61,911 nucleotides of DNA. Origin: Candidatus Iainarchaeum sp. (GTDB taxonomy: Archaea; Iainarchaeota; Iainarchaeia; Iainarchaeales; VGJJ01). Location: assembly GCA_016198125.1 (NCBI GenBank), contig JACQJG010000019.1, positions 1 through 61,911 on the forward strand. Reading direction: 5' to 3'. The translations under genes and the position numbers were made by a program. The notes under the pieces were generated by a model. That model saw only the letters and a list, made by a program, of their open reading frames with translations, was not told the origin of the DNA and did not search any database. Below are positions 27,101 through 61,170 of this stretch, piece after piece. How positions within the stretch are numbered: position 1 is the stretch's first letter; each line of letters begins with the position of its first letter.

Positions 27101-27153
27101 CCCCGGATGAAGTCATAAAAATGGCGCGAAGCAATGCAAAGCTGCCCAGGTGA
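24103..27153 (+). CDS. Type IV pilus/type II secretion ATPase (VirB11/CpaF/FlaI family) with intein
   Basis: SGGTGSGKT Walker A, TIED..TRE Asp box, LRMRPDRIVVGEIR Walker B, TGH...TVHA His box. Confidence 0.93.
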   Translation: MKRETMAGEKGKVIEKYTVQAEIPLEVEIHESGEEFVRVYALKYPSFGPGTRALLNELRTKIITDTSISAEKMLDLKFVETLKAQFMEKANALLKKELPEASEDVRNKIRVILIHDMLGLGHIEFLLNDGNLEEIVVNTASEPVWVYHKKHGWLKTNVFIGNEAETVNYSSIIARRVGKQITILTPLLDAHLVTGDRANATLFPISSKGNTITIRRFRRDPWTVTDFIKASTASVDVMALVWLAMQYESNIIVSGGTGSGKTSLLNVLMPFIPPNHRIVTIEDSVSGEAEILYEYRGKVFKSTVGELVDGLAEDDSIEDCMLENENDIRIPSMNPQGRIEWSKPSHFIRHRVKKDLLKITLKSGKTIEVTPDHSLFTLNTEGHISSVSGLEVKEGTWLATPRKVEWKGTNVAFDLRPHLNDLETFKGCFVKSLEIRPILQACKAPLLRRFPKATLNNAIRKNLASVEMLQLADYTPQSGWICSRLGTKIPLDIEVDEDLATFAGLWLADGCYDKNSTLVSIVEPEARVFVERVAERFGVRTKMHSDGITLMINSKPLKQFFQGVMGLDGNAYTKKMPSWVFRLEKPLIAAVLCGYFSGDGWVRKNDIAIRSSSKQLLKDVQTLLLPFGIPLRVKWKLLKDRTFEAHISTAKFLREFANQVGFVINKKTLACAKWENAQSHDVSDVIPLPKKLYVPLKKVIKNEIGRTRSYYSWKSYLGTYSLSNIGRKTLQNLAVRYVNELPPIYGELAFNDLLWDSVVSVERVPFHGFVYDFSVPGNESFVCDNVVCHNTREIQIPEFLHWVPLTTREPNAEGKGGVNMLDLLVNSLRMRPDRIVVGEIRRQREAEVMFEAMHTGHSTYTTVHANTAEETIRRLISPPIEVPVSMLEAVHLNVVMYRNRRMGMRRILQVAEFIPEKSGSESNYQLKPNILYRWKANGDRIEKYSESIRLNDELNLHTGLNASEIAEDLADRRRVLEWMVKNDIRSIGDVGRVMAQYYHAPDEVIKMARSNAKLPR
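24952..26472 (+). mobile_element. Intein with LAGLIDADG homing endonuclease (507 aa)
   Basis: Starts SVSGEAEI after TIED; VTPDHSLF block B; GLWLADG and GYFSGDG; ends VYDFSVPGNESFVCDNVVCHN/T. Confidence 0.92.
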
Positions 27154-48101: not shown

Positions 48102-48989
48102 TCATGCGGTTCTAGTAGCAAACGCCTTCCAGCTTTTTTCCGTGTAGGAATGAACAAGTTTTTGCGCTATGATTTGGCTTTCGCATACCGCGCAAATGGT
48201 GGGCCCTGCGCCCGCAAGAATGGCATTCAAAACGCCTGGAACGCGTTTTATTTTTTCAATTTCCTGGAAAACGGGAAGGTATTCGGGTAATTTCAAGAAC
48301 TCGAATGCGTTGCCCATTTCACGCGCAACGGATTCCATGGAATGGGAATGAATGGCCGCACGCATGCGCTCCACTGAAGGATGCATGGAAACGTTTTCAA
48401 CGCGGAAGTGGGAGTAAATCCACTTGGTTTTGTCCGCAGGCACGTGAATGGGCGGCACTACAAACGCCAAAAACAAAGCCGGGCACGGTTCAATGGGGGT
48501 TATTTTTTCGCCTCTTCCCTGCGCCCTGCACGTGCCCCCATAAATGAAGAATGGAGCATCGCTGCCCAATACTGCGGCTTTTTCCGCCAATGCCTGTTTT
48601 GAAAGGTTCAACGCCCATGCCGCATTCAAAGCCTTTAAAACAGTGCCTGCATTGGAACTGCCTCCTCCAAGTCCTCCTGCGCTTGGAATTTTCTTGTCCA
48701 AAACGATTTCAATGCCCGGGGCTTTTTTTCCAGGGTTTTTTTGCACAAAGACTTCTTGCATTACTTGAACGGCCTTGAAGGCAAGGTTTTTTTCATCCGT
48801 TGGAATACTTGAGTCACTGCATTGAATGCGAATGGAAGCGGGCTCTCCACGTGGGTGAATGATAATGGTGTCATGCAATTCCAGTTCTTGCATGACAAAG
48901 TCCACTTCGTGAAAGCCATCTGAACGTTTGAATAAAATGTCGAGGATTAAATTGACTTTGGCTGGAGAGTTTAAAAGTTGCATGGGCAT
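48102..48989 (-). CDS. ispE: 4-diphosphocytidyl-2-C-methyl-D-erythritol kinase
   Basis: PAKVNLILDIL...DGFHE, KIPSAGGLGGGSSNA, LGSDAPFF, GRGEKI. Confidence 0.93.
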   Translation of the reverse strand: MPMQLLNSPAKVNLILDILFKRSDGFHEVDFVMQELELHDTIIIHPRGEPASIRIQCSDSSIPTDEKNLAFKAVQVMQEVFVQKNPGKKAPGIEIVLDKKIPSAGGLGGGSSNAGTVLKALNAAWALNLSKQALAEKAAVLGSDAPFFIYGGTCRAQGRGEKITPIEPCPALFLAFVVPPIHVPADKTKWIYSHFRVENVSMHPSVERMRAAIHSHSMESVAREMGNAFEFLKLPEYLPVFQEIEKIKRVPGVLNAILAGAGPTICAVCESQIIAQKLVHSYTEKSWKAFATRTA

Positions 48990-49381
48990 CAGGCAGTTGT
49001 TTTTGTTCTCCAATACTCATTCAAATAGGAAATTTTATTTCCTTTCATTTTTAGTATCATAATCCCAGCCATGCGGCCTTTTCTCCATTTTTGGTCGTGC
49101 GCCCATTTATGGGTGCTTTTGCATTCCCACTCTGCAAAACCCGTTTTACCGTCCAAAGAAATGTATGCTTTTTTCAGGCGAAATTGAATGCTCTTTGTAT
49201 TTTTTGCAACTACGCGTTCCCAAAAAGCCTTTATTTTTTTATGGCCCTGTAAGGGCGCGGCTAATGGACTTTCCTGATACACTGCATTTTTTATAAAACA
49301 GTCCAAAATCAGCTTTGAATCCCTTTGTTCCCAGGCTTTGCCATATAGTTCCATGACTTGTTTTACTTGGCGTGCATTCAT
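48989..49381 (-). CDS. SnoaL/NTF2-like protein
   Basis: YGKAWEQRD....CF..NAVY......GHKKI..FW; GNKISYLNEYW. Confidence 0.85.
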   Translation of the reverse strand: MNARQVKQVMELYGKAWEQRDSKLILDCFIKNAVYQESPLAAPLQGHKKIKAFWERVVAKNTKSIQFRLKKAYISLDGKTGFAEWECKSTHKWAHDQKWRKGRMAGIMILKMKGNKISYLNEYWRTKTTA

Positions 49382-49401: not shown

Positions 49402-50415
49402 TCAGTGCACGACATACGCAGGCCTGATAATTTCAGGCGTTGCATGATTTGCGCGGTGGTCGTATTCAATCAGCCAGTTCACCACGTCTTCAATGTCTTC
49501 GTCTGGAGTGGAAGCGCCGGCACCGATTCCAACGTGCTTTTTTCCTTTAAACCAGTCGTCTTTCAGTTCTTCCCTGCTTTCCACCCACTTCGTGTCAGTA
49601 ATTTTTGAGCATAATTCGTATTGGCGTTTGGTGTTCCCTGAATTCTTCCCCCCAATGATGATCATGCAGTCTGCTTTGTGCGCCAATTCTACTGCGCCGG
49701 GTTGCATTTCGTGCATGGCATTGCAAATCGTGTTGTACACGCGCACTTCCCGCGCCTTGTTTTGCAAAACCGAAACAATGGCTTCCACGTTGTCATTGGA
49801 TTGCGTGGTTTGGCTTACAATTCCAAGCTTTGGAATGGTGGGGTAATACAATTTCTCAACGATTTGGCCTGACTCGGTTTCGCGCATGATTTCATCCGTT
49901 GTAAAGTACTGTTTTTTGTCCAAAAAAAGTTTTTTGGCCTCTTCCGGGGTTTCAACGACAAGGGCGTTGGGCGCATAAGACTTAATGCCTTCCACTTCCG
50001 GGTGGCCGTGTTCTCCGATGACAATGACCTGGTACTTTGCATCGTACAATTCTTTTGCGGTTTTGTGCACCATGGTTACAAAAGGGCACGTGGTGTCAAC
50101 TACATTGAATCCTTTTTCCCTGGCTTTTTCCAATGCCTGGACTGGGACTCCGTGGGCGCGCATGAGCACAGTAGAACCGGAAGGAACTTCATCCATGGAC
50201 GTTAAGTGGGGCAATTTGGAGATCTTGCTTGCAGCATAGGGATTGTCTTCCACCAGTTTTCCACCCCTATTCACAATGTCTTGTACAACCCGTTGATTGT
50301 GCACGGGCATGCCATACAAGTACGCAGAACCTTTGGCAAGGGTTTCTTTGGACAGTTTAACGGAACGCTTAACGCCAAAACAGAAGCCTGCGGCTTTGGC
50401 CAGTTCAATCTTCAT
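49402..50415 (-). CDS. ispH: 4-hydroxy-3-methylbut-2-enyl diphosphate reductase
   Basis: GFCFGV, VHN, RAHGV, DTTCPFV, HPEVEG, SQTT, NTICNA, GAGASTP. Confidence 0.96.
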   Translation of the reverse strand: MKIELAKAAGFCFGVKRSVKLSKETLAKGSAYLYGMPVHNQRVVQDIVNRGGKLVEDNPYAASKISKLPHLTSMDEVPSGSTVLMRAHGVPVQALEKAREKGFNVVDTTCPFVTMVHKTAKELYDAKYQVIVIGEHGHPEVEGIKSYAPNALVVETPEEAKKLFLDKKQYFTTDEIMRETESGQIVEKLYYPTIPKLGIVSQTTQSNDNVEAIVSVLQNKAREVRVYNTICNAMHEMQPGAVELAHKADCMIIIGGKNSGNTKRQYELCSKITDTKWVESREELKDDWFKGKKHVGIGAGASTPDEDIEDVVNWLIEYDHRANHATPEIIRPAYVVH

Positions 50416-50549
50416 ATACTAAACCCCCACCCACGTGGTCTTAAACATTGGCCAAAAAGCATTTAAACCCTTCACGGTGATTGTCTAAGTGGGGTTCGAC
50501 CACTTACATTTAATGCCAGGTAAACCCCTGCCTTTGAAGGAAATTGCCC

Positions 50550-51740
50550 ATGTCAGTCCAAAAACAATATCCAAAATGCCTGGCCTTGCTGGGCAGCACG
50601 GGAAGCGTTGGAACGCAAACCCTTGACTGCGTGCGCATGCACCCAAACGAATTCAAAGTTTTGGCATTAACGGCGCAAAACAACATTGACTTATTGGAAA
50701 AGCAGGCACGCGAGTTCAGCGTGGAAACTGTGGGTATTGCCAACCTGGAAAAAGCAGAAGAGTTTAGGCGGCGCGTGAAAGGAAAAATTCACGTGGAAGA
50801 AGGATTGGAAGGCATTTTGAAAATTTGTGCATATGAGGAAGCAGACACCGTGTTAAATGCCCTGGTGGGAAACATTGGGCTGCGCCCTACGCTCCATGCC
50901 ATGAAGCATAAAAAAAACGTGGCGTTGGCCAACAAGGAAACCATGGTAAGCGGCGGAGAACTTGTCATGGAAGCCGCGCGCAGGAACAAGGTCCATTTGG
51001 TCCCCATTGACTCCGAGCACTCGGCGATCTTTCAATGTTTAAATGGGGAAAACAAGGGTGAAATAAGCAAAATCATTCTCACGTGCTCGGGCGGGCCTTT
51101 TCGCGGAAAAAAGTTAAATGAATTGAAAGGGGTAACAAAAGAGCAGGCGTTAAACCATCCCACGTGGAAAATGGGGGGCAAAATAACAATTGACTCTGCG
51201 ACCCTCATGAACAAGGGTTTTGAAGTCGTGGAAGCCATGTGGTTGTATGGGGTGGAGCCTGAACGCATTGAAGTAGTCGTTCACCCGCAAAGCCTCATTC
51301 ATTCCATGGTGGAATTCGTGGATGCAAGCATTATTGCACAACTTGGCACGCACGACATGAGAACGCCCATTCAATATGCGCTCACGTATCCAAGGCGCAT
51401 GAAATGCCCTGCGACGCGCCTCAATTTGTTGGAAGCAAAACAGTTTACGTTTGAAAAACCAGACATGGAAACCTTTCAGTGCCTTGCACGTGGCTATGAA
51501 GCGGCACGCAGGAAGGGAACGACTGCCACGGCCATCAATGCAGTTAACGATGAATGCGTGGGCGCATTCCTTGATGGAAAAATAGAGTTTTTGGACATTC
51601 AGCGCACCATTCAAAAAGTGGCTGAAAAAAACAGGCATGTAACCCACCCCGTATTGGAAGACATTTTGAACGCAGATGAGTGGGCGCGCAGGGAAACAAG
51701 AAAAGAGCTTGGAATAGAACTTTCCATTCCTGTCAGGTAA
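50550..51740 (+). CDS. dxr: 1-deoxy-D-xylulose-5-phosphate reductoisomerase
   Basis: LGSTGSVG, ALANKE, PIDSEHSAIFQ, HPTWKMGGKITIDSATLMNKG. Confidence 0.97.
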   Translation: MSVQKQYPKCLALLGSTGSVGTQTLDCVRMHPNEFKVLALTAQNNIDLLEKQAREFSVETVGIANLEKAEEFRRRVKGKIHVEEGLEGILKICAYEEADTVLNALVGNIGLRPTLHAMKHKKNVALANKETMVSGGELVMEAARRNKVHLVPIDSEHSAIFQCLNGENKGEISKIILTCSGGPFRGKKLNELKGVTKEQALNHPTWKMGGKITIDSATLMNKGFEVVEAMWLYGVEPERIEVVVHPQSLIHSMVEFVDASIIAQLGTHDMRTPIQYALTYPRRMKCPATRLNLLEAKQFTFEKPDMETFQCLARGYEAARRKGTTATAINAVNDECVGAFLDGKIEFLDIQRTIQKVAEKNRHVTHPVLEDILNADEWARRETRKELGIELSIPVR

Positions 51741-51750
51741 GGCCTGCAAC

Positions 51751-53325
51751 TCATTTTAACACGATTTCATAGGGTTGCGTGGCTTCTAATTTTGAACCGC
51801 TTCCAAGAAAAGCCTGCACATACAAGGGCACAGAGGAAACTAGACTTGGAATGGAAACTGGAATCCAGGTGTTGGTGGGCAGGGAAATAACGGTAAGGGG
51901 GGTTCCAACGAAATTCGTGCACGTGTTTCCACTGGGTTGCCCTGCCTGGCTTGTTCCAATCAACAGCGTAGATGACGCGTAATTGGCCGACGTTATTTGA
52001 ACGTTAACAGTTTCTCCCGGTGAAGGAATGCCTTGAATGTGCAATGCAGGCGTATCATTGACCCCGCAGGCAAGACCATACGGTTTTAGGGTTCCATTGA
52101 AAAAAGTCCATGCCTGCAGGAGGCCGTTTTTATTTGCGGTTGCAATAAAAAAGTCATCGACTCCATTTCCCTCCACGTCTATATTTCCACTCACGGCTTC
52201 TCCAAACTCTGAATTGGATTGCGGGCCCTCAAGGCTTGCTAAAACAGCCCCATTCTTTCCGGATAACACGCGTGCCATGCCCTTAAATTGATTGGCCAGG
52301 GGCGCGCCTGCAAGGACATCCGAGAAACCATCGTTGTCTGCATCCCCTGCATCTGCAACTGCCTTGCCAAACCAGGAAGCAAAAGGCCCATCGGCTTTCC
52401 AAACAAGGGTTTTTGAAACGCCATCATACACGTATACGCGGCCGTTGTTGGAACTGTTAAAAAAAGGGGCTCCAACCACCAAATCTTCCACGTGGTCTCC
52501 GGTGGCATCTTCAATTTGCGCAATTGCCCACCCAAACCAGTCTTGTGCGGCCTCGCCATAAAAAGTGTGCAGGGGCAGAAACGTTTTCCCGGAAAAAACA
52601 AGGACCTTGCCTTCCGGGTTTTGATTGTATAACCCATACGGGGCTCCTGCTGCAAAGTCAGGAACGGCATCGCCATCAAAGTCTGAGAATGCCGTGAGCG
52701 AATACCCTAATTGGCTGGGAGTCAGCCCATTTATTTTTTTCACCAATGCATTTGTTTTTGGGGAAAAAATGTGCACGCTTCCTTCGTTAAAGGCAAGTAC
52801 ATCATGATAGGGGCTGCCAACCAGTATTTCTGGAAAACCGTCTCCTGTTAAATCGCCCATTCCTGCAACACTCCACCCAAAAATGTCTCCTGAATTTTCT
52901 CCGGAAGCGGAGAAAAGAACGCTTCCATTGGCCCCGGACAAAACGCGAACATACCCGGGACCGCTGGGCAGTCCGTCATTCCATTGGGGGGCTCCTACAA
53001 TGAGTTCAGGAACACTGTCCCCGCTGATGTCGGGTATTTTTCCCAATGCGTGCCCAAACCAGTCTCCATTGTTTTGGCCAAACCTTTCCCAAATGACTTG
53101 GCCGTTTTTTCCGGAAAAAAGAACGACTTTATTGGACGCAATGGACCCGGATGCAAGGTCAACAAACCCGTCAAGGTCAACGTCTGCCAAGGGCATCACA
53201 GAACGGCCAATGAATTCTCCGGGGGTTCCATTAACTTCCAGCAACATGCTGGGGGCTGGAAGCGACCACGCAGAAGAGAGTAAGAACAAAAACCCTGCCA
53301 TGCCAAGAAAATGCGCGAATTTCAT
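51751..53325 (-). CDS. Secreted FG-GAP (integrin-alpha-like) beta-propeller protein
   Basis: Signal peptide; about seven FG....DxxGDGxxDxxVGAP...G.V...SG repeats. Confidence 0.9.
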   Translation of the reverse strand: MKFAHFLGMAGFLFLLSSAWSLPAPSMLLEVNGTPGEFIGRSVMPLADVDLDGFVDLASGSIASNKVVLFSGKNGQVIWERFGQNNGDWFGHALGKIPDISGDSVPELIVGAPQWNDGLPSGPGYVRVLSGANGSVLFSASGENSGDIFGWSVAGMGDLTGDGFPEILVGSPYHDVLAFNEGSVHIFSPKTNALVKKINGLTPSQLGYSLTAFSDFDGDAVPDFAAGAPYGLYNQNPEGKVLVFSGKTFLPLHTFYGEAAQDWFGWAIAQIEDATGDHVEDLVVGAPFFNSSNNGRVYVYDGVSKTLVWKADGPFASWFGKAVADAGDADNDGFSDVLAGAPLANQFKGMARVLSGKNGAVLASLEGPQSNSEFGEAVSGNIDVEGNGVDDFFIATANKNGLLQAWTFFNGTLKPYGLACGVNDTPALHIQGIPSPGETVNVQITSANYASSTLLIGTSQAGQPSGNTCTNFVGTPLTVISLPTNTWIPVSIPSLVSSVPLYVQAFLGSGSKLEATQPYEIVLK

Positions 53326-53431
53326 GAAAAGCTTGCCTTTCCAAAATAATAAAAGGTTTTACCCAAATGGGCTTCCTTTCCTCACAGCGCTTTTAAAGAC
53401 CTCGCAGAGAGTACAATAACCGGGGAAGCAT

Positions 53432-54136
53432 ATGACGGTGTGGGCCATTGTGGGAGCAGGAGGCATTGGAAAGCGCATGGGCGCTGGCAAGAACAAAGTG
53501 CTTTTGAAAGTGGCGGGAAAAGAAGTGCTTGCGCATACGTTACAGGTGTTCGAAGGCACGCGGGTAGTAGACAAAGTCCTTTTAGTCATTCACCCGGACA
53601 ATGCAATGGAAGCCCAAAAACTTGTGAAAAAGTACGCGTTCAAAAAAGTGCACGCCATTGTGCAAGGAGGAAGGGAAAGACAGGATTCTGTGTGGAACGG
53701 CCTTCAAAAGGCCAGGGAATTGGGCGCAGAAAAAGGAGACTTTCTTTGCATTCATAACGGGGCCAATCCGCTGGTTCAACCTGCAGAAATTAAAGCGTGT
53801 TTGGATGCTGCACGCGAAACCAAGGCGGCGGTGCTGGGTTTTAAGGTCAAAGACACTCTTCGAAGGGTAAGTGAAAACCTTGTGAGCCTTGGCACGGTGG
53901 ACCGCAAAGGATTGTGGGCCATGCAAACCCCGCAGTGCATTGAATTTTCTCTTGCATGGAACGCGTTTGAAAACGCAATGAAAGAAGGGTTTTATGGCAC
54001 GGATGATGTCCAACTGGTTGAACGAATGGGGCACCCCGTACGGGTGGTGGAATGCGGGTATGAAAACATAAAACTCACAACGCCGGAAGATTTGCGCATC
54101 GCGGAAGGCATTTTTAAACAACGCGCTAAAAAATAA
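53432..54136 (+). CDS. ispD: 2-C-methyl-D-erythritol 4-phosphate cytidylyltransferase
   Basis: GAGGIGKRM..NK, GGRERQDSV, IHNGANP, QTPQ, TDD, NIKLTTPED. Confidence 0.95.
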   Translation: MTVWAIVGAGGIGKRMGAGKNKVLLKVAGKEVLAHTLQVFEGTRVVDKVLLVIHPDNAMEAQKLVKKYAFKKVHAIVQGGRERQDSVWNGLQKARELGAEKGDFLCIHNGANPLVQPAEIKACLDAARETKAAVLGFKVKDTLRRVSENLVSLGTVDRKGLWAMQTPQCIEFSLAWNAFENAMKEGFYGTDDVQLVERMGHPVRVVECGYENIKLTTPEDLRIAEGIFKQRAKK

Positions 54137-54573
54137 TGGAGGGCTTTATGAAAAATGTTGTTTCATTCATTGAAATGCAAACCCGACAGGTAATGGAATT
54201 TCATGACATTACAGAAAAGGTCAGAGAAGCCGTAAAGAAAAGCAATGTAAAAGAGGGCCTTGTCAACGTGTTCACGCAGCACACCACGTGCTGTGTTAAA
54301 ATTAATGAATTTGAAGAAAAGTTAATGCAGGATTTTTACCAGTTTCTTGAAAAGCGCGTTCCCCAGTTTGAAAAATACGGCCACGACATTAACCCTGTTG
54401 ACGGAAGAAAGAATGCGCACTCGCACTTGAAATCCCTTATTTTGAACACGTCTGAATGCATTCCCCTGCAAAAAGGAGAATTGCTGTTAGGCACATGGCA
54501 ACGCGTTTTCTTTGTGGAATTGGACGGGCCAAGAGAAAAAAGAAAAGTCATTGTGCAAGTGCTTGGCGAATAG
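54136..54573 (+). CDS. yjbQ: YjbQ/UPF0047 family protein
   Basis: DITEKV, HTT...INE, NAHSHLKS, LGTWQRVFFVELDGPR. Confidence 0.93.
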   Translation: MEGFMKNVVSFIEMQTRQVMEFHDITEKVREAVKKSNVKEGLVNVFTQHTTCCVKINEFEEKLMQDFYQFLEKRVPQFEKYGHDINPVDGRKNAHSHLKSLILNTSECIPLQKGELLLGTWQRVFFVELDGPREKRKVIVQVLGE

Positions 54574-54594
54574 GTTTTAAGGAAGTGAACGTGC

Positions 54595-55893
54595 ATGAAC
54601 AAAGAGGATATGAATGGCTTTCTTGCACTGGGAAAAGACCTGGGGCAGGAGTATGCCTTGTTTACTTATCTCATTGAAACCCCTATTGACCCTGTGACTG
54701 CAGGCGCGCATTTGTGCCAGGAGCAGAGCACGGCCCAATGGCACCGCGTGGGAGTGGAAGAGGATTTCCGGGAAAAATACGGCGCAAAAGTAGTGTCATG
54801 CAAAACACTGGAAGTGAATTCAAAGCCCAAGATTCAGGCATTTGTAGAAGGGGAAAAATACACGATTGCAGAAATAAAAATCGCGCACCCTACCATTAAT
54901 TTTGGCCCAAAAATCCCGAATCTTATCACGGCGGCTGCTGGGGAAGGGGCGTTTCACTGCCCGGCAGTGAACACCATCAAACTGGTCAACGTTGAATTGC
55001 CTGAAAAATACCTGCGCGCTTTTGAAGGCCCCAAATTTGGACTGAAAGGGCTGCGCCGGGTAATGAAAGTAAAAGACCGGCCTTTTTTCTTTGGGGTGGT
55101 AAAACCCAACATTGGATTGCCTCCAAAACCGTTTGCAGAACTTGCATACCAGGCATGGAAAGGCGGCTTGGACGCGTGCAAGGACGATGAACTGCTTTCC
55201 GATGTGGAATACTCGCCGCTCAAAAAAAGACTTGAACTGGTTTTGGAAAAAATGTTCAAGGCAGAACAGGAAACGGGCGAAAAGAAAATGTTTGTTGCCA
55301 ATATCACAGACGAAGTGGACCGCGTCCTGGAACTGCATGACTTGGTTGCAGGAATGGGGGGAAATGCAGTCATGGTTAATGCATTTCCTGTGGGGTTGAG
55401 CGGGGTGCGCATGCTGGCAAAAAAAACAAAAATACCCGTTGTGGCGCACTTTGATTTTATTGCGCCTTTCACGCGAATGCCATACTTTGGAGTTAAATCT
55501 GAACTTATCACACGACTGCAACGCCTGGCTGGATGCGATGCCATTATCATGCCCGGACTGGGAAAACGCATGCTGGTGGCAGAAGAAGAAGTCAAGGAAA
55601 ACGTGAAGGCGTGCTTGTATGACATGAAGAACATTCAGCCCTGCCTTCCAGTTCCCGGCGGCAGTGATTGGGCAGGGTCCCTGCCAAAAATGCATGAGGC
55701 TTTTCAAACGGTTGACTTTGGAATGGTGCCTGGAAGAGGCGTGTTTGGCCATCCTTTGGGGCCAGAAGGCGGGGCACGGAGTTTGCGCGAGGCGTGGGAA
55801 GCCCTGGAAAAAGGGGTTTCGCTGGAAAAGCATGCGGAAACGCATGAGGCTTTGCGCACGGCCATTGAGTGCTTTGGAAAAAAGAAGGAGTGA
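54595..55893 (+). CDS. rlp: RuBisCO-like protein (form IV), IV-Photo/Chlorobium type
   Basis: EQSTAQW.RVGV.EDFR, NFGPKIPNL, FFGVVKPNIGL, GGLD..KDDE, ANITDEVD, IMPG.G.RM, PCLPVPGGSD, VPGRGVFGHP. Confidence 0.92.
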   Translation: MNKEDMNGFLALGKDLGQEYALFTYLIETPIDPVTAGAHLCQEQSTAQWHRVGVEEDFREKYGAKVVSCKTLEVNSKPKIQAFVEGEKYTIAEIKIAHPTINFGPKIPNLITAAAGEGAFHCPAVNTIKLVNVELPEKYLRAFEGPKFGLKGLRRVMKVKDRPFFFGVVKPNIGLPPKPFAELAYQAWKGGLDACKDDELLSDVEYSPLKKRLELVLEKMFKAEQETGEKKMFVANITDEVDRVLELHDLVAGMGGNAVMVNAFPVGLSGVRMLAKKTKIPVVAHFDFIAPFTRMPYFGVKSELITRLQRLAGCDAIIMPGLGKRMLVAEEEVKENVKACLYDMKNIQPCLPVPGGSDWAGSLPKMHEAFQTVDFGMVPGRGVFGHPLGPEGGARSLREAWEALEKGVSLEKHAETHEALRTAIECFGKKKE

Positions 55894-56393
55894 AAAGAGT
55901 GTACCGTATTGGGTTTGGAGTGGATTCTCACCGGTTTGAAGCTGTTTCAACGGGCAAAAAACTCATGCTGGGGGGCATTGAAATCCCCCATCCTGTTGGA
56001 ATGGAGTCGCATTCAGATGGCGATGTGATTTTACATGCCTTGTACAATGCGCTGGCCAGTGCCTTGGGAGAAGGAAGCATTGGCACGGCGTTTCCAGATT
56101 CGAAAGAAGAAAACCAGGGACGCGATTCCAAAGAATTCGTTGCACACATTCTACAAAAAACAAGACAAGAAGGCTACATAATTCAGAATGTGGGGGTTAG
56201 CTTGGAGTGCAAAACCCCGAAAATCAACCCGCATGAAAAGGCCTTCAAGGAGTCCATTGCACAGTTGCTGGGCATTAAAGTCGAACAGGTAGCCGTGCAC
56301 GCTACCACGGGAGAAAGCCTTACGGCTGTTGGAAAAGGAAAAGGCATTTACACCCAAGTCATTGTACTCTTGGAAAAACACCAAAAACGTTGA
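55890..56393 (+). CDS. ispF: 2-C-methyl-D-erythritol 2,4-cyclodiphosphate synthase
   Basis: RIGFGVDSHRF, LGGIEIP, HSDGDVILHA, IGTAFPDS, ATTGE; GTG start overlapping the RLP stop (or GTG at 55899). Confidence 0.94.
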   Translation: MKRVYRIGFGVDSHRFEAVSTGKKLMLGGIEIPHPVGMESHSDGDVILHALYNALASALGEGSIGTAFPDSKEENQGRDSKEFVAHILQKTRQEGYIIQNVGVSLECKTPKINPHEKAFKESIAQLLGIKVEQVAVHATTGESLTAVGKGKGIYTQVIVLLEKHQKR

Positions 56394-56485
56394 ATGACGT
56401 AAAATGATTTGGGGATTAACGTAAGGCTTTTAAATGGGGTCCGGTTGGAATATTTTATACTGTTTATTGGGGGTGGGGCCCTTCC

Positions 56486-58285
56486 ATGTATGAAACCAAA
56501 ATCACCACTAAACTATTGAGTAAAGTGAACAGCCCGCAGGACATCAAGCATTTTTCTTTCCCGAAACTCAATGAGCTTGCAGAGGAAGTGCGGGAAACGC
56601 TTATCTGCGTGTGCGCAAAAAATGGAGGGCACATTGGCACGAACCTGGGGGTCGTGGAGTTAACGATTGCACTGCATTACGCGTTTGATTCTCCAAAAGA
56701 CAAACTGGTGTTTGACACCACCCATCAAACGTACACGCACAAACTGCTCACTGGAAAACGGGAAAAGTTTGACACGATTTGCACGCCAAAAGGCATTCCG
56801 CGTTTTTCCGTGCGCTCAGACAATGTGCATGACTGCTGGGGCGCTGGACACGCGTCCACTGGTTTGAGTGCGGCCATGGGCATGGCCGAGGCAAGAAAGC
56901 GCAACAAAAAACAATACGAAGTAGTGGCCATCGTTGGAGACGGGGCCATGACAGGCGGCATGTGCTTTGAGGCTATGAACAACATTGGGTACAATCAAAC
57001 GGATTTACTCATTGTATTGAATGACAATAAAATGAGCATTTCTCCCAACGTGGGCGCTTTGTATGAGTACATGAAGCGCCTGTCCATGACCAGTGCCTCA
57101 GACAAGCCGCGCAGGGAAATTGGAACCATTTTTGAAAAACTGGGCATCAGGTATTATGGCCCGGTAGACGGACACGACATTGAAGGATTGGTGCAGGCGT
57201 TCAACGAATTAAAGCACATTCGCGGCCCCAAACTGTTGCATGTTCTAACAGAAAAAGGAAAGGGCATGCAGTACATGGAAAAAGACAAGGCCCGGTGGCA
57301 TGAACATGCAGCGTTTGACATTGAAACAGGGGATCCTGTAAAACCCAAAAGCCCTACCCTGGAAGGAGTGGCCGTGCAGGCGCTCATAGAACTTGCGGAA
57401 AAAGACGATTCCATTATTGGCATTACTGCGGCCATGCCGTCTGGAACTGCAATGGCCAAGTTTGGAGAAAAGTTTCCTGACCGGTTTTATGATGTGGGAA
57501 TCGCGGAAGAACATGCGACTACTTTTGCTGCCGGGCTTGCGTGCGAAGGCGTGAAACCATTTGTGTGCATTTACTCTCCTTTTTTACAGCGCGCATTTGA
57601 CCAAATCATGCATGATGTTTCATTGCAGGATTTGCCGGTGCGGTTCATGGTGCCCAAAGCCGCGATTACAGGCGATGGCCCCACCCAAGGAGGCATTTTG
57701 GATTTGAGTTATTTGCGCGTCATTCCTAACACCGTAGTGATGGCGCCAAAAGATGAGAATGAGTTGCGGCACATGATTAAAACCATGCAACTCTATGAAA
57801 AAGGGCCCATCAGCGTGCGCTACCCCAAAGGAAACATAAACTCAATTCCTGCTGAACCCTTAAAGGAAATTCCCATTGGCCAGGCAGAGGTTTTACGCGA
57901 AGGAAAAGACGTGGCGCTGATTGCCATTGGAAGCATGGTGGGGGACGCGTTAAAGGCTTCGGATCAATTAAAAGGAATGGGCATTGAGGCTGCTGTGGTA
58001 AACGCGCGCTTTGCCAAGCCCTTGGACGAAAAAACCATTATTCATGCGCTAAAAACGTGCGGTAAAGGCATTACCTTGGAAGAAAACACCCTTGTGGGCG
58101 GGTTTGGAAGCGCGGTGCTTGAACTCCTAGAAAGCAGGGGCTTGCAAGACATTCACGTGACGCGCATTGGCGCACCGGATGAGTACATTGGGTATGATGA
58201 TCCTAAGAACATTAAAGCCGGGTATGGAATGAATGTGGAAAGCATTGTGGCGCGCGCAAAGGAATGGGTTGCACGAACCAAGTAA
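56486..58285 (+). CDS. dxs: 1-deoxy-D-xylulose-5-phosphate synthase
   Basis: GGH...LGVVELTIALH, HQ.Y.HK.LTG, GHAST, GDGAMTGG..FEAMN, NDN.MSI, YYGPVDGHD, ITAAMPSGT, DVGIAEEHA. Confidence 0.94.
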   Translation: MYETKITTKLLSKVNSPQDIKHFSFPKLNELAEEVRETLICVCAKNGGHIGTNLGVVELTIALHYAFDSPKDKLVFDTTHQTYTHKLLTGKREKFDTICTPKGIPRFSVRSDNVHDCWGAGHASTGLSAAMGMAEARKRNKKQYEVVAIVGDGAMTGGMCFEAMNNIGYNQTDLLIVLNDNKMSISPNVGALYEYMKRLSMTSASDKPRREIGTIFEKLGIRYYGPVDGHDIEGLVQAFNELKHIRGPKLLHVLTEKGKGMQYMEKDKARWHEHAAFDIETGDPVKPKSPTLEGVAVQALIELAEKDDSIIGITAAMPSGTAMAKFGEKFPDRFYDVGIAEEHATTFAAGLACEGVKPFVCIYSPFLQRAFDQIMHDVSLQDLPVRFMVPKAAITGDGPTQGGILDLSYLRVIPNTVVMAPKDENELRHMIKTMQLYEKGPISVRYPKGNINSIPAEPLKEIPIGQAEVLREGKDVALIAIGSMVGDALKASDQLKGMGIEAAVVNARFAKPLDEKTIIHALKTCGKGITLEENTLVGGFGSAVLELLESRGLQDIHVTRIGAPDEYIGYDDPKNIKAGYGMNVESIVARAKEWVARTK

Positions 58286-58323
58286 ACGTAATTTTATACA
58301 TAACCTGTTTTTGGAGAAGCCTC

Positions 58324-59013
58324 ATGACTCACGAACGTTTTTTGTTTGTAAATTTTAAAGCCTATTTGGAAGCTTCTCACACCCGCGCCTTGGATTTGGT
58401 CAAAGCCATGGAAGACGTGCAGGAAACGCATGAAAAAATTACTTTGATTCCAGTAGTGCAAGCGTTAGACCTTGCCTGGTTGCAGGATAAAACATCCTTG
58501 CCCTTGTGGGGCCAGCACGCGGACTCCATTCAACCAGGAGCATTCACCGGGCACGTGCTGCCCGAGGCCCTGAAAATAGCGGGGGCAACAGGAACGTTGG
58601 TGAATCATGCAGAGCGCAAAGTCGATAATGCGGTGCTTGAAAGGACAATGGCCCGGTGCAGGGAAGCAACCCTTTTGATTCAGGCTTGCGCAGAAACTGT
58701 GGAACGCGCCATTCAAATCGCTTCCATGCCCGTTCAACCGAACTTCATTGCATTCGAGCCCCCGGAATTGATTGGAGGTACTGTCTCAGTGTCCAGTGCA
58801 CAACCGGAAATCGTGCAACGCTTCGTGGAAAAAGTAAGAGAACGCTCTCCAAATACCATTCCCATTTGCGGGGCCGGAGTTAAGAACGCCCAAGACGTGG
58901 CCAAGGCATTGGAATTGGGCACGCAAGGAATTTTAGTGGCCAGCGGCGTTGTGAAAGCACCCAATCAAAAAGAAGCATTGGAAGAATTGTGCAAGGGGTT
59001 CGGTCAACGTTAA
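58324..59013 (+). CDS. tpiA: Triosephosphate isomerase, archaeal type
   Basis: VNFKAY, QHAD, GAFTG, NHAER, EPPELIG, CGAGV, LVASGVVKA. Confidence 0.95.
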   Translation: MTHERFLFVNFKAYLEASHTRALDLVKAMEDVQETHEKITLIPVVQALDLAWLQDKTSLPLWGQHADSIQPGAFTGHVLPEALKIAGATGTLVNHAERKVDNAVLERTMARCREATLLIQACAETVERAIQIASMPVQPNFIAFEPPELIGGTVSVSSAQPEIVQRFVEKVRERSPNTIPICGAGVKNAQDVAKALELGTQGILVASGVVKAPNQKEALEELCKGFGQR

Positions 59014-59040
59014 GTGCAATTATATTTGTGGTGCCGGCAG

Positions 59041-59424
59041 TCACGCTTTTCGCTTGACCCATTCCACGTTTTTCATTTCGGCGAAGGCCTTATCCCCTGT
59101 AAGAAATTTTATTTTTTGCTTCAAGGAAATGGAATACCCAATGCAGTCCACGTATGAAAGATTCAGTTTAGGATTTTGCGCGCGCATTCTTGCCGCATTT
59201 TTGAATGCATTGTCGTCCATGTCAATTGTTTGGGGCAAAAAAGCGGCATAATACTTTTCGGCCAGGGCTTCATCAGCCTCCCTGAGGGTTGAATAATACA
59301 ATTCCATTAGATTGAGTTTTGTTGTGATAATCGTGTGCCGTTCAAAGTAGGAAAGGTAATCGGGATTGTCCTTGAGGTACTCTATAAGAGCAAATGTGTC
59401 GGCAAAATACTGCACTATCCCCAC
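59041..59424 (-). CDS. vapC: PIN-domain toxin (VapC)
   Basis: FADTFALIE, NLMELYY, LSYVDCIGY, FLTGDKAF. Confidence 0.9.
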   Translation of the reverse strand: MGIVQYFADTFALIEYLKDNPDYLSYFERHTIITTKLNLMELYYSTLREADEALAEKYYAAFLPQTIDMDDNAFKNAARMRAQNPKLNLSYVDCIGYSISLKQKIKFLTGDKAFAEMKNVEWVKRKA

Positions 59425-60108: not shown

Positions 60109-61170
60109 ATGCCCGGCGAAAAAACCGAACAACGCAAAGCAGAGCATTTGAAGATTTGCGCGAAAGGGGATTTGGGCAAGATTACGTTTACAAACAAGAC
60201 AACAGGTTTTGAAGAAATTGATTTAATTCCAAGCGCGTTGCCTGAGATAAGCAAAGACGAAGTGGAATTGGAAACAGAATTCTTGGGCAAGCCCTTGGCA
60301 TTCCCGTTAATTGTAAGCAGCATGACTGGCGGTTGCAAGGAAGCGGGGGAAGTGAACAACGATATTGCGTCTGCGTGTGAAGAACTTGGAATTGGCATGG
60401 GCGTTGGAAGCATGCGCGCCATGATTGAAAACCCTGCACTGGCATACACCTACAAAGTGCGCGACGTGGCGCCAAACATTTTCCTGAATGGAAACATTGG
60501 GGTTTCACAGCTCAAAGGAATGGATTTGGAAAAACTCGCAGGGGCATTAAACGAAGTGGATGCAGACGCGCTGGCCATTCACCTGAACCCCGCCCAGGAA
60601 GCCGTGCAAAAAGAAGGCACTACAGACTTCAAAGGACTGGCAAAAGAAATTGAACGGACAGTGAAAAAACTGTCTGCCCCTGTTTTTGTAAAAGAAGTTG
60701 GAAATGGCATTTCACGTGAAACTGCACGGCTCCTTGTACAAACAGGAATTCAAGCCATTGACGTTTCCGGGGCAGGTGGAACGAACTGGGTGAAAATTGA
60801 TGCCATGCGCGGAAAAAATACAAATGCCGAATACTTGTATGAGTGGGGCGTGCCCACGGCGCTTGCGATCGTGGAAGCGCGTTCTGTATACAACCAAACC
60901 ATTCTTGCGTCCGGGGGGATTAGAAACGGCTTGGACATTGCCAAAGCCTTGATTTTGGGCGCGGATTTGTGCAGCATTGCACTCCCTGTGCTGCGTGCGC
61001 AAGCGGACGGAGGCAAGGAAGGCGTTGTAGAGTACCTGACCCGCATCCAAGGGGAACTGCGCACGGTCATGTTCCTTGTAGGGGCAAAGAACTTGAACGA
61101 GTTGAAAGACAAAAAAATCGTGGTGCACGGGAAAATGCGGGAATGGTTGAAGCAACGCGGAAAGGGTTGA
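60109..61170 (+). CDS. fni: Type 2 isopentenyl-diphosphate delta-isomerase (FMN-dependent)
   Basis: RKAEHL, SMTGG, GVGSMR, IHLNPAQEAVQ.EG, VKEVGNG, DVSGAGGTNW, ASGGIRNGLD. Confidence 0.96.
   Translation: MPGEKTEQRKAEHLKICAKGDLGKITFTNKTTGFEEIDLIPSALPEISKDEVELETEFLGKPLAFPLIVSSMTGGCKEAGEVNNDIASACEELGIGMGVGSMRAMIENPALAYTYKVRDVAPNIFLNGNIGVSQLKGMDLEKLAGALNEVDADALAIHLNPAQEAVQKEGTTDFKGLAKEIERTVKKLSAPVFVKEVGNGISRETARLLVQTGIQAIDVSGAGGTNWVKIDAMRGKNTNAEYLYEWGVPTALAIVEARSVYNQTILASGGIRNGLDIAKALILGADLCSIALPVLRAQADGGKEGVVEYLTRIQGELRTVMFLVGAKNLNELKDKKIVVHGKMREWLKQRGKG

What the first reader, a model, noticed from the sequence alone, without database searches (positions are those of the whole stretch)
53432..56393. 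IV-Photo-type RuBisCO-like protein embedded in an MEP operon (ispD-yjbQ-rlp-ispF)
Seen: the RLP lies 21 bp after yjbQ and its stop overlaps or abuts the ispF start, splitting the normally adjacent ispD-ispF pair. Its motifs (EQSTAQW.RVGV.EDFR, NFGPKIPNL, GVVKPNIGL, IMPG.G.RM, PVPGGSD, VPGRGVFGHP) match, from memory, the Chlorobaculum tepidum RLP. Known: that protein's reaction is unresolved and its mutant has reduced photopigment, while a different RLP clade in Rhodospirillum rubrum feeds DXP via the MTA-isoprenoid shunt. Inference: in a non-phototrophic archaeon this context points to an isoprenoid-precursor role for IV-Photo RLPs, for example isomerising a (deoxy/methylthio)ribulose phosphate to DXP or repairing an MEP side product.
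Basis: partly seen in the sequence, partly recalled or inferred. Interest (0 to 1): 0.88.

Follow-up and report, generated by a model that had tools for sequence, protein, structure and literature searches.

The report
RuBisCO-like/YjbQ pair in isoprenoid operon
A non-carboxylating RuBisCO relative and a small partner gene of unknown function sit inside an archaeon's isoprenoid-precursor operon, and the same pair lies next to other isoprenoid genes in distant microbes, which gives a testable lead to an enzyme whose job has long been unknown.

Summary
The window (archaeal, DPANN-like, 846 kb assembly) holds ispD-yjbQ-RLP-ispF-dxs as one tight co-directional block inside a larger MEP cluster. 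The RLP is closest to the Chlorobium tepidum RLP and R. palustris RLP2 (IV-Photo), keeps the enolisation residues and lacks the carboxylase ones.

The linkage is not unique to this genome. All 5 RLP-bearing relatives keep yjbQ-RLP beside MEP genes. Across 80 genome loci, yjbQ sits directly upstream of the RLP in 49 of 52 loci outside one yjbQ-less clade. The pair lies beside a different isoprenoid gene in each of five lineages: ispD/ispF/dxs, dxs, FPP synthase, idi, and a UbiA-type prenyltransferase. In Micrarchaeota it lies beside MtnP and MtnA equivalogs.

Best reading (about 0.4): a YjbQ-dependent variant of the RLP "MTA/5'-deoxyadenosine to DXP" shunt.

Against this reading:
- R. palustris RLP2 is inactive on MTRu-1-P.
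- The window's own lineage lacks MtnA.
- In one bacterial class, Dxs loss shows no association with the RLP, and Dxr+/Dxs-/RLP- genomes exist.

The chemistry is unproven. I found no printed report of the YjbQ partnership or of the cross-lineage synteny.

The parts
48102..49013 (-). ispE (CDP-ME kinase)
   Evidence: TIGR00154, 220.1 bits against a cut-off of 138.7.
48989..49381 (-). SnoaL-like small protein between ispE and ispH
   Evidence: PF12680, 37.4 bits. A homologue holds the same position in relative L011.
49402..50415 (-). ispH
   Evidence: TIGR00216, 249.7 bits against 187.85; PF02401.
50544..51740 (+). dxr
   Evidence: NF009114, 503.1 bits against 461.
53432..54136 (+). ispD
   Evidence: TIGR00453, 210.1 bits against 181.3.
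54136..54573 (+). yjbQ / UPF0047, the conserved upstream partner of the RLP
   Evidence: TIGR00149, 133.6 bits against 67.75. Its start overlaps the ispD stop by 1 nt. A homologue lies directly upstream of the RLP in 49 of 52 loci outside the yjbQ-less clade.
54595..55893 (+). RuBisCO-like protein, IV-Photo type, 432 aa
   Evidence: PF00016. Best PDB hits are 1TEL/1YKW and 2QYG. No NCBIfam equivalog reaches its cut-off. Active-site comparison.
55869..56393 (+). ispF (alternative in-frame GTG start at 55890)
   Evidence: TIGR00151, 172.2 bits against 116.45. Junction read.
56486..58285 (+). dxs
   Evidence: TIGR00204, 691.3 bits against 465.95.
58264..59013 (+). archaeal-type triose-phosphate isomerase, overlapping the dxs end
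   Evidence: NF003302, 224.9 bits against 132.
60109..61170 (+). type-2 IPP isomerase
   Evidence: TIGR02151, 389.7 bits against 281.3.

Best explanation
yjbQ and the IV-Photo RLP form one two-gene module, and the module works in isoprenoid-precursor supply.

The most likely mechanism is a YjbQ-dependent variant of the RLP shunt known from Rhodospirillum rubrum:
1. A 5-substituted ribulose-1-phosphate is made by MtnP and MtnA. It would be 5-deoxyribulose-1-P from 5'-deoxyadenosine, or 5-methylthioribulose-1-P from MTA.
2. The RLP enolises it on its carbamylated-Lys/Mg site and isomerises it 1,3 to a 1-substituted xylulose-5-phosphate.
3. The product is DXP itself, or becomes DXP through YjbQ. 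YjbQ looks like a metal- and phosphate-binding protein.
4. DXP enters Dxr-IspD-IspE-IspF.

In the window's archaeon, which has Dxs, the module would be an accessory salvage input to the MEP operon.

Shown here: the gene pair, its synteny and the active-site pattern. Inferred: the substrate, the product and the role of YjbQ.
For: 1. Tight operon. There is a 1-nt overlap, a 21-nt gap and an overlapping stop/start across ispD-yjbQ-RLP-ispF.

2. Relatives. The RLP is in 4 of 17 genomes of the sister genus plus 1 genome of another family. In all 5 the RLP with yjbQ lies among MEP genes: ispD-Nudix-yjbQ-RLP-ispF-dxs, or dxs-yjbQ-RLP. A metagenome contig shows dxs-yjbQ-RLP-ispG (L138). The 13 RLP-less genomes of that genus have ispD-Nudix-ispF with no yjbQ hit, so the pair moves as a cassette.

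3. Partnership. Among 80 genome-contig loci, yjbQ is directly upstream on the same strand in 49 of 52 loci outside one clade. Two of the three misses have under 200 bases upstream. Inside that clade the count is 0 of 28.

4. Isoprenoid neighbours. 36 of the 52 yjbQ-linked loci have an isoprenoid gene close by, in five different arrangements:
- MEP operon: 4 archaeal loci.
- xseB-dxs-(SOUL)-yjbQ-RLP: 9 alphaproteobacterial loci.
- xseA-FPP synthase-yjbQ-RLP: 13 loci (NF045485, 377.6 bits against 275).
- yjbQ-RLP with IDI-1 within about 1.2 kb: 8 Chromatiaceae loci (TIGR02150 and NF002995 above their cut-offs).
- UbiA-family prenyltransferase-yjbQ-RLP: 2 Micrarchaeota loci.
The yjbQ-less clade has 0 of 28.

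5. Upstream enzymes. In Micrarchaeota and Aenigmatarchaeota loci the pair lies beside MtnA (TIGR00512, 413.9 against 279; 6 loci) and MTAP (TIGR01694, 293.2 against 274.85; 5 loci). These are the first two enzymes of the R. rubrum shunt.

6. Active site, aligned against form III RuBisCOs of same-order genomes (residue numbers are recalled):
- Kept: E60, W66, K175, K201, D203, E204, H294.
- Changed: N123 to E, K177 to N, R295 to F, H298 to I, H327 to M, S379 to G.
The enolisation machinery is therefore kept, and the site that binds the distal phosphate in RuBisCO is hydrophobic.

7. Published activity. PMC5893883 cites earlier work in which RLP2 slowly converted a small part of MTRu-1-P to 1-methylthioxylulose-5-P.

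8. MEP without Dxs among carriers. 11 of 13 FPP-synthase-group genomes and 5 of 5 Micrarchaeota carry Dxr and IspH genes in most cases but no Dxs above cut-off. The next field shows why this is weak evidence.
Against: 1. In vitro and in vivo data. R. palustris RLP2 showed no detectable MTRu-1-P isomerase activity, and its deletion left MTA metabolism unchanged (PMC5893883). That assay was done without YjbQ, and 5-deoxyribulose-1-P was not reported.

2. No upstream enzymes in the window's lineage. An IF-2B/MtnA gene was not found in G000 (tblastn). It was also not found in 4 of 4 RLP-bearing genomes of the sister genus, which are 85-95% complete. MTAP was not found in G000 either.

3. No phyletic complementarity with Dxs. 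In the class of G064 (93 genomes):
- The RLP is present in 44 of 76 genomes without Dxs.
- The RLP is present in 10 of 17 genomes with Dxs.
That is 58% against 59%.

4. Dxs-less MEP without any RLP. All 5 sampled genomes that lack both Dxs and the RLP still have Dxr and have no RuBisCO-family gene at all. Another route to DXP must exist there.

5. The module is dispensable. Only 5 of 18 genomes of the window's family carry it, and Dxs is present beside it.

6. Flux. One SAM per C5 unit would be a costly sole source for archaeal lipids. This point is inference.
Confidence: 0.42

Rival explanations
1. The pair is tied to isoprenoid-precursor metabolism but does not make DXP from a salvage substrate. 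It would act on DXP itself or a look-alike ketose phosphate, as epimerisation or repair of a Dxs or Dxr side product, or as removal of an inhibitor.
For: The pair lies directly beside dxs in two lineages and between ispD and ispF here. The window's lineage has Dxs but no MtnA. The RLP keeps only the enolisation residues, which suits epimerase or isomerase chemistry on a 2-ketose phosphate such as DXP.
Against: It does not explain the MtnA and MTAP adjacency in Micrarchaeota. It does not explain why the pair is kept in 22 of 22 genomes of an order where 17 of 22 lack Dxs. No such damage product is known to me.
Confidence: 0.2
2. The pair belongs to nucleoside, pentose or sugar-acid catabolism. 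Examples are ribulose-1-P to xylulose-5-P, or a 3-oxo-acid phosphate decarboxylase like the apiose-pathway RLPs. On this reading the isoprenoid neighbours are incidental.
For: Micrarchaeota loci add a ribokinase-like PfkB gene to MTAP and MtnA. Chromatiaceae loci continue into gnd, zwf and pgl. The best NCBIfam model for the RLP is OiaX, at 244 bits against a cut-off of 700. A sister clade 53-56% identical to the window's RLP sits with MBL-fold lactonase-like, class II aldolase, FGGY kinase and MFS genes and extra RLP paralogues.
Against: Five different isoprenoid genes recur next to the yjbQ-linked form (36 of 52 loci), and none recurs next to the catabolic-looking clade (0 of 28). The pocket that binds the distal phosphate in RuBisCO is hydrophobic (F, I, M), which argues against a hydroxylated or phosphorylated C5.
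Confidence: 0.15
3. The classical reading: the IV-Photo RLP serves sulfur oxidation or the oxidative-stress response, and its place in MEP operons comes from co-transfer of neighbouring DNA.
For: PMC5893883 and PMC6389311 (passages read) summarise the C. tepidum RLP as involved in stress response and sulfur oxidation. The DPANN RLPs form one clade (17 rows, SH-aLRT 97), consistent with a single transfer into these archaea.
Against: The isoprenoid neighbour differs between lineages (dxs, ispA-type synthase, idi, ispD/ispF, prenyltransferase), so one hitch-hiking event cannot explain it. The R. palustris rlp2 mutant shows no sulfur phenotype. The carriers include non-phototrophs and tiny DPANN genomes.
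Confidence: 0.13
4. Thiamine-related role. YjbQ would act as a thiamine-phosphate synthase-like enzyme and the pair would supply or repair the ThDP cofactor of Dxs, or a DXP-derived thiazole precursor.
For: NCBIfam names TIGR00149 a 'secondary thiamine-phosphate synthase enzyme YjbQ'. PMC3010111 cites the weak ThiE-like activity. Dxs needs ThDP (established knowledge).
Against: PMC3010111 states that this activity is not believed to be the physiological one. The pair persists in genomes without Dxs. FPP synthase, idi and prenyltransferase neighbours have no thiamine link.
Confidence: 0.05

Closest known systems
IV-Photo RuBisCO-like proteins (Chlorobium/Chlorobaculum tepidum RLP, PDB 1TEL/1YKW; Rhodopseudomonas palustris RLP2, PDB 2QYG)
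   Same: By far the closest solved relatives, full-length matches at E 5.7e-149 and 6.9e-142. The motifs match. In my tree the protein groups with sequences from Chromatiaceae, Chloroherpetonaceae and phototrophic Alphaproteobacteria. The function of this clade is still open in what I read (PMC5893883).
   Different: The host is a small-genome DPANN-like archaeon. The gene lies inside a MEP operon. Here it is read together with an upstream YjbQ gene, which the literature I could search does not link to RLPs.
MTA-isoprenoid shunt of Rhodospirillum rubrum and R. palustris (MtnP, MtnA, DeepYkr RLP as MTRu-1-P 1,3-isomerase, cupin MTXu-5-P methylsulfurylase, giving DXP)
   Same: An RLP linked to isoprenoid precursors. 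MtnP and MtnA equivalogs lie next to the pair in Micrarchaeota. The end point would be the Dxr substrate.
   Different: The RLP belongs to another clade: the R. rubrum-type chain 3QFW matches only at E 2.5e-24. YjbQ stands where the cupin would be; cupin presence was not tested. RLP2 is inactive on MTRu-1-P. The window's genome shows no MtnA or MtnP.
Bacterial-type MEP gene clusters in DPANN archaea (Woesearchaeota; Castelle and Banfield 2018; PMC8204110; PMC8421398)
   Same: Co-located MEP genes in a DPANN genome, of bacterial type (passages read).
   Different: The main texts do not mention an RLP or UPF0047 among the neighbours. The named relatives here carry 'Iainarchaeum', 'archaeon' and Micrarchaeota titles. 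Supplementary Table 4 of PMC8204110 lists the neighbours of MEP genes, but I could not open it.
IV-Photo RLPs already reported in CPR Parcubacteria and one Micrarchaeota genome (Jaffe et al., PMC6389311)
   Same: Same clade, in small-genome lineages, explained by lateral transfer.
   Different: That paper proposes an oxidative-stress role and does not contain the word 'isoprenoid' (0 occurrences).
RLPs of D-apiose catabolism (OiaX and relatives)
   Same: OiaX is the best-scoring NCBIfam model. The yjbQ-less sister clade has a sugar-acid catabolic neighbourhood.
   Different: The score is 244 bits against a cut-off of 700. The window's gene has no kinase, lactonase or aldolase neighbours.

Membership tests
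RuBisCO large-subunit superfamily | Match to the catalytic-domain and N-terminal-domain profiles | tested here: met
   PF00016, 180.2 bits against 30.1; PF02788, 24.0 against 20.7.
Bona fide RuBisCO (forms I-III, carboxylase) | Full set of catalytic and RuBP-binding residues (N123, K175, K177, K201, D203, E204, H294, R295, H298, H327, K334, S379; numbering recalled) | tested here: not met
   Alignment with three form III RuBisCOs from same-order genomes. K175, K201, D203, E204 and H294 are kept. N123 is E, K177 is N, R295 is F, H298 is I, H327 is M and S379 is G. TIGR03326 scores 233.7 against a cut-off of 497.45.
IV-Photo RLP clade | Closest relationship to the C. tepidum RLP and R. palustris RLP2 rather than to other RLP clades | tested here: met
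   1TEL/1YKW at E 5.7e-149 and 2QYG at 6.9e-142. The next hits are 3NWR at 2e-57, MtnW-type 2OEK at 8e-44 and 3QFW at 2.5e-24.
IV-Photo RLP clade | Placement in a tree that holds reference sequences of all six named RLP clades | tested here: inconclusive
   The tree held only IV-Photo-like sequences plus paralogous RLPs from the same loci as outgroup. No named references of the other clades were available to me as sequences.
MtnW/YkrW DK-MTP-1-P enolase | Equivalog model score | tested here: not met
   TIGR03332, 154.8 against 513.6; NF007095, 194.3 against 409.
OiaX 3-oxo-isoapionate-4-phosphate decarboxylase | Equivalog model score | tested here: not met
   NF042437, 244 against 700.
MTA-isoprenoid shunt (R. 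rubrum type) | MtnP and MtnA present to make MTRu-1-P | tested here: not met
   Not found in G000 (tblastn; assembly 71% complete). MtnA was not found in 4 of 4 RLP-bearing sister-genus genomes. Both are present and adjacent to the pair in Micrarchaeota loci and in G029.
MTA-isoprenoid shunt (R. rubrum type) | DeepYkr-type RLP with MTRu-1-P 1,3-isomerase activity | tested here: not met
   Sequence similarity to 3QFW is only E 2.5e-24. The IV-Photo protein RLP2 had no detectable activity (PMC5893883). The activity of this particular protein cannot be tested with these tools.
MTA-isoprenoid shunt (R. rubrum type) | Cupin MTXu-5-P methylsulfurylase | not tested
   No search was made for it. YjbQ occupies the partner position.
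YjbQ / UPF0047 | Family profile score | tested here: met
   TIGR00149, 133.6 against 67.75; PF01894, 139.7 against 27. Nine PDB relatives are all named hypothetical or uncharacterised.
MEP pathway (complete set) | dxs, dxr, ispD, ispE, ispF, ispG, ispH all present | tested here: inconclusive
   Six of the seven are in the window. IspG was not found in G000 (assembly 71% complete). Among 12 sister-genus genomes, 11 have ispG, and where both were located it lies just downstream of dxs.

The most novel reading that the evidence does not exclude
YjbQ (UPF0047) plus the IV-Photo RLP is a two-enzyme, Dxs-independent route to DXP. It would start from the MtnP/MtnA products of 5'-deoxyadenosine or MTA and is spread by lateral transfer among phototrophs, a Bdellovibrio-like order and DPANN archaea. 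If true, it assigns a function to the orphan IV-Photo RLP and to the UPF0047 family at once. It would also explain part of the 'MEP pathway without Dxs' genomes.
Probability: 0.3. Interest if true: 0.85.

Novelty: new variant of a known kind. Interest (0 to 1): 0.72.

Why it matters
The IV-Photo RLP had no assigned reaction in anything I could read; a 2018 paper still calls for experiments to find the function of RLP2. UPF0047/YjbQ is a widespread family with nine solved structures and no known role.

This locus and its relatives turn both questions into one concrete experiment: test the two proteins together on MtnA-type products and read out DXP.

If the pair makes DXP, three things follow:
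- It is a second natural RLP route into the MEP pathway.
- It is a candidate for part of the unexplained Dxs-less MEP genomes (172 bacterial species in PMC10663253).
- It is a possible Dxs bypass for terpenoid engineering.

It would also say something about how DPANN archaea with bacterial MEP genes feed lipid synthesis from scavenged nucleosides.

Tried and rejected
1. Phyletic complementarity with Dxs.
- First result: 11 of 13 FPP-synthase-group genomes lack Dxs but have Dxr (13 of 13) and IspH (12 of 13).
- In the order of G064, the RLP is in 22 of 22, Dxs in 5 of 22 and Dxr in 21 of 22 genomes.
- I took this as strong support until the class-level table showed no association: the RLP is in 44 of 76 Dxs-less genomes and in 10 of 17 Dxs-bearing genomes.
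- Five of 5 sampled Dxs-less, RLP-less genomes had Dxr and no RuBisCO-family gene.
- I therefore dropped complementarity as a main argument. Completeness of these genomes is not given by the tool.

2. Complex prediction of RLP (alignment A1) with YjbQ (alignment A2): no verdict, score 0.00 against a mark of 0.32. It is not used for or against binding.

3. A bona fide form III RuBisCO in the RLP-bearing sister-genus genomes: none found. TIGR03326 hit only the RLPs, 0 of 5 above cut-off. Form III sequences for the residue comparison came from five other same-order genomes.

4. Rfam scan of the window: 0 matches.

5. Promoter and terminator scan of 53200-59200: not above shuffles (6 found against 4.3 +/- 2.1; 9 found against 9.3 +/- 3.7). 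The model is bacterial and of little use for an archaeon.

6. The conserved gene downstream of the RLP in the FPP-synthase group (11 loci) has no Pfam or NCBIfam match and a signal-peptide-like N-terminus. I set it aside as probably unrelated.

7. Literature. No paper in the library holds both 'UPF0047' and 'RuBisCO-like'. The only paper with both 'YjbQ' and 'RuBisCO' is an unrelated review. Searches for 'RuBisCO-like protein' with IV-Photo, with isoprenoid plus C. tepidum, with DXP (from 2018), and with 5-deoxyribulose found no assignment for IV-Photo RLPs. Subscription journals are mostly not in the library. Tabita et al. 2007 (PMC2168653) is not held.

8. Supplements are closed. Supplementary Table 4 of PMC8204110 (neighbours of MEP genes in DPANN) and the species lists of PMC10663253 may bear on novelty and on the Dxs-less groups. 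I did not see them.

Full report
WHAT IS THERE

The window is contig C12 of an 846-kb, 20-contig assembly rated 71% complete. Between 48.1 and 61.2 kb it holds a MEP-pathway cluster:
- ispE, a SnoaL-like gene and ispH on the minus strand;
- dxr on the plus strand;
- an FG-GAP repeat gene on the minus strand;
- ispD, yjbQ, RLP, ispF, dxs and an archaeal-type TIM on the plus strand;
- a PIN-domain gene;
- a type-2 IPP isomerase.

The block from ispD to TIM is packed tightly. The ispD stop and the yjbQ start share one base. Then 21 nt precede the RLP ATG. The RLP stop lies within the ispF frame, and dxs and TIM overlap.

The window is archaeal. It has archaeal RecJ above its cut-off, archaeal-type TIM and a FlaI-like ATPase. 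The closest RLP-bearing records in the named collection carry titles such as 'Candidatus Iainarchaeum archaeon', 'uncultured archaeon' and 'Candidatus Micrarchaeota archaeon'.

WHAT THE RLP IS

It is a RuBisCO-superfamily protein (PF00016) that reaches no NCBIfam equivalog cut-off. OiaX scores 244 against 700, form III 233.7 against 497, and MtnW 154.8 against 513.6.

Its closest solved relatives are the C. tepidum RLP (E 5.7e-149) and R. palustris RLP2 (E 6.9e-142). Everything else is at 2e-57 or worse. That is the IV-Photo pair of reference proteins.

I aligned it with three form III RuBisCOs from genomes of the same order. Residue numbers below are recalled.
- Kept: the carbamylation and metal triad (K201, D203, E204), K175, H294, E60 and W66.
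- Replaced: N123 by E, K177 by N, R295 by F, H298 by I, H327 by M and S379 by G.

So it can enolise a bound ketose phosphate but is not a carboxylase. The pocket that holds the distal phosphate of RuBP is hydrophobic.

IS THE LINKAGE REAL OR A ONE-OFF?

Among 60 related genomes, ispF is found in 17 of 17 genomes of the sister genus. The RLP is found in only 4 of those 17, plus 1 genome of another family.
- In all five, yjbQ-RLP lies among MEP genes. Four show ispD-Nudix-yjbQ-RLP-ispF-dxs, complete or cut by contig ends. One shows dxs-yjbQ-RLP.
- A metagenome contig shows dxs-yjbQ-RLP-ispG (L138).
- The 13 RLP-less genomes of the sister genus have ispD-Nudix-ispF-dxs and no yjbQ hit in that interval.

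The two genes therefore come and go together as a cassette inside the operon.

THE WIDER PICTURE

I fetched the 80 best of 472 relatives in one-genome-per-species contigs and built a tree.
- One clade of 28 loci (SH-aLRT 98; Desulfobacterales, Chloroflexota, Spirochaetota and others) never has yjbQ (0 of 28).
- That clade sits instead with an MBL-fold lactonase-like gene, a class II aldolase-family gene, an FGGY kinase, an MFS transporter and extra RLP paralogues.
- Outside that clade, yjbQ lies directly upstream on the same strand in 49 of 52 loci. Two of the three misses have fewer than 200 bases upstream.
- The DPANN sequences, including the window's, form one clade (17 rows, support 97). 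It lies within a 30-row clade (support 99) that also holds bacteria of the 'FPP-synthase group'.

What lies next to the yjbQ-RLP pair differs by lineage but keeps pointing the same way:
- MEP-operon genes in 4 archaeal loci.
- xseB-dxs, then a SOUL-family gene on the other strand, then yjbQ-RLP in 9 alphaproteobacterial loci.
- xseA-FPP synthase-yjbQ-RLP in 13 loci.
- Type-1 IPP isomerase within about 1.2 kb in 8 Chromatiaceae loci.
- A UbiA-family prenyltransferase directly upstream in 2 Micrarchaeota loci.

That is 36 of 52 loci in five different arrangements. The loci within one lineage are kin and are not independent; the arrangements are the independent units.

In Micrarchaeota and Aenigmatarchaeota loci the pair also lies beside genes that pass the curated cut-offs for MtnA (6 loci) and MTAP (5 loci), plus a ribokinase-like gene.

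A second, independent collection (80 metagenome loci) repeats both patterns. yjbQ-linked loci carry FPP synthase (6 loci) or dxs/ispG. yjbQ-less loci carry the MBL and aldolase genes.

HOW IT MOST LIKELY WORKS

MtnP and MtnA make 5-methylthio- or 5-deoxy-ribulose-1-phosphate. In R. rubrum and R. palustris, a different RLP clade isomerises the former to 1-methylthioxylulose-5-P, and a cupin then releases DXP (PMC5893883; PMC10663253).

Three observations fit a variant of that shunt in which YjbQ takes the partner role:
- upstream enzymes of that shunt on one side of the pair;
- MEP and prenyl genes on the other side;
- an enolising active site with a hydrophobic distal pocket.

With the 5-deoxy substrate the same 1,3-isomerisation would give DXP directly. 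This is a point of chemistry, inferred and not tested.

The RLP-linked YjbQ proteins share invariant His, Asp/Glu and Arg positions and no invariant Cys. This suits a metal- and phosphate-binding enzyme, but again it is inference. Its solved relatives are all unnamed. For E. coli YjbQ, PMC3010111 (passages read) reports only two things: a weak ThiE-like activity, which it cites, and multicopy rescue of a pdxB mutant.

WHAT SPEAKS AGAINST IT

- R. palustris RLP2 had no detectable activity on MTRu-1-P, and its deletion left MTA metabolism unchanged. That was without YjbQ, and the 5-deoxy substrate was not reported.
- The window's own lineage lacks the upstream enzymes. No IF-2B/MtnA was found in G000 or in 4 of 4 RLP-bearing sister-genus genomes. 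The more distant G029 has MtnA with MTAP beside it.
- The pair is accessory here (5 of 18 genomes in the family) and sits next to a normal dxs.
- The apparent link with loss of Dxs did not survive a wider control, as follows.

The first counts on Dxs loss looked striking:
- Dxs was missing in 11 of 13 FPP-synthase-group genomes.
- It was missing in 17 of 22 genomes of an order in which the RLP is universal.
- It was above cut-off in 0 of 5 Micrarchaeota.
- Dxr and IspH were nearly always present.

The wider control, over the whole class (93 genomes), removed the signal:
- The RLP is in 44 of 76 Dxs-less genomes.
- The RLP is in 10 of 17 Dxs-bearing genomes.
- Five of 5 sampled genomes with neither gene still have Dxr and have no RuBisCO-family gene at all.

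Something else must make DXP in those genomes. The Dxs-less pattern is therefore at most weak support.

COMPARISON WITH WHAT IS KNOWN

- MEP clusters in DPANN are known for Woesearchaeota.
- IV-Photo RLPs in Parcubacteria and one Micrarchaeota genome are known and were read as stress-related. The word 'isoprenoid' does not occur in that paper.
- I found no paper that connects YjbQ/UPF0047 with RLPs, or IV-Photo RLPs with MEP, idi or ispA neighbourhoods. The library lacks most subscription journals.
- Supplements were closed. This includes the table of MEP-gene neighbours in PMC8204110.

VERDICT

The specific reaction is unproven and there is real counter-evidence. I put about 0.65 on some functional tie to isoprenoid-precursor metabolism, about 0.4 on DXP formation by the pair, and less on any single substrate.

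I file it as a new variant of a known kind, an RLP shunt into the MEP pathway. It is of high interest because it makes two long-standing orphan functions testable in one assay.

Noticed in passing
window 24103-27153 (+) and 44315-47275 (+): Both long ORFs carry intein signatures. One is a FlaI/VirB11-like secretion ATPase with intein N-terminal matches. The other is an archaeal RecJ (NF053576, 481.6 bits) with an intein C-terminal match.
   Followed up: no
window 58264-59013; G000 as a whole: IspG was not found in G000 (PF04551; tblastn). Eleven of 12 sister-genus genomes have it, and where both genes were located it lies directly after dxs. In the window, TIM follows dxs instead. The assembly is only 71% complete, so absence is not shown. 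The same tblastn also found no polyprenyl synthase or UbiA homologue.
   Followed up: partly
L016:924-1505, L009:8755-9450, L024:367-1005 (relatives): A Nudix gene resembling type-1 IPP isomerase (below the NCBIfam cut-offs) sits between ispD and ispF (or yjbQ) in the sister genus. It is missing from the window, where ispD abuts yjbQ. The window has a type-2 IDI at 60109-61170.
   Followed up: partly
L053, L057, L063-L066, L083, L087, L089, L096, L101 and many of L144-L213: A yjbQ-less sister clade of RLPs is 53-56% identical to the window's. It sits with an MBL-fold lactonase-like gene, a class II aldolase-family gene, an FGGY kinase, an MFS transporter and one or two further RLP paralogues. 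This looks like an uncharacterised sugar-acid catabolic cluster.
   Followed up: partly
class of G064 (G061-G158): Dxs above cut-off is present in only 17 of 93 genomes of this bacterial class. Five of 5 sampled genomes lacking Dxs and any RuBisCO-family gene still have Dxr. This is a class-wide MEP pathway without a recognisable Dxs. Completeness of these genomes is not given.
   Followed up: partly
G086-G090 (genomes of L042, L043, L045, L046, L049): Genomes titled Micrarchaeota (0.6-0.9 Mb) carry Dxr (4 of 5) and IspH (4 of 5), but none has Dxs above cut-off (0 of 5). They have only split transketolase-like matches.
   Followed up: partly
window 48989-49381 (-) and 51751-53325 (-): A SnoaL-like gene overlaps the ispE start and is conserved at the same place in a relative (L011). 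A 524-aa FG-GAP repeat protein with a signal-like N-terminus is inserted on the opposite strand between dxr and ispD.
   Followed up: no
G029:C12:10468-11763 and G140:C1:216190-217449: The RLP matches in these two genomes contain in-frame TGA codons: 1 in G029 and 3 in G140. They could be sequencing errors, pseudogenes or recoding. I did not examine them.
   Followed up: no
L099, L111, L112 (Chromatiaceae) and L090, L114 (Alphaproteobacteria): The yjbQ-RLP pair lies within a few kb of photosynthetic reaction-centre genes (Photo_RC, CytoC_RC, PRC-barrel). In Chromatiaceae it lies just upstream of gnd, zwf and pgl.
   Followed up: no
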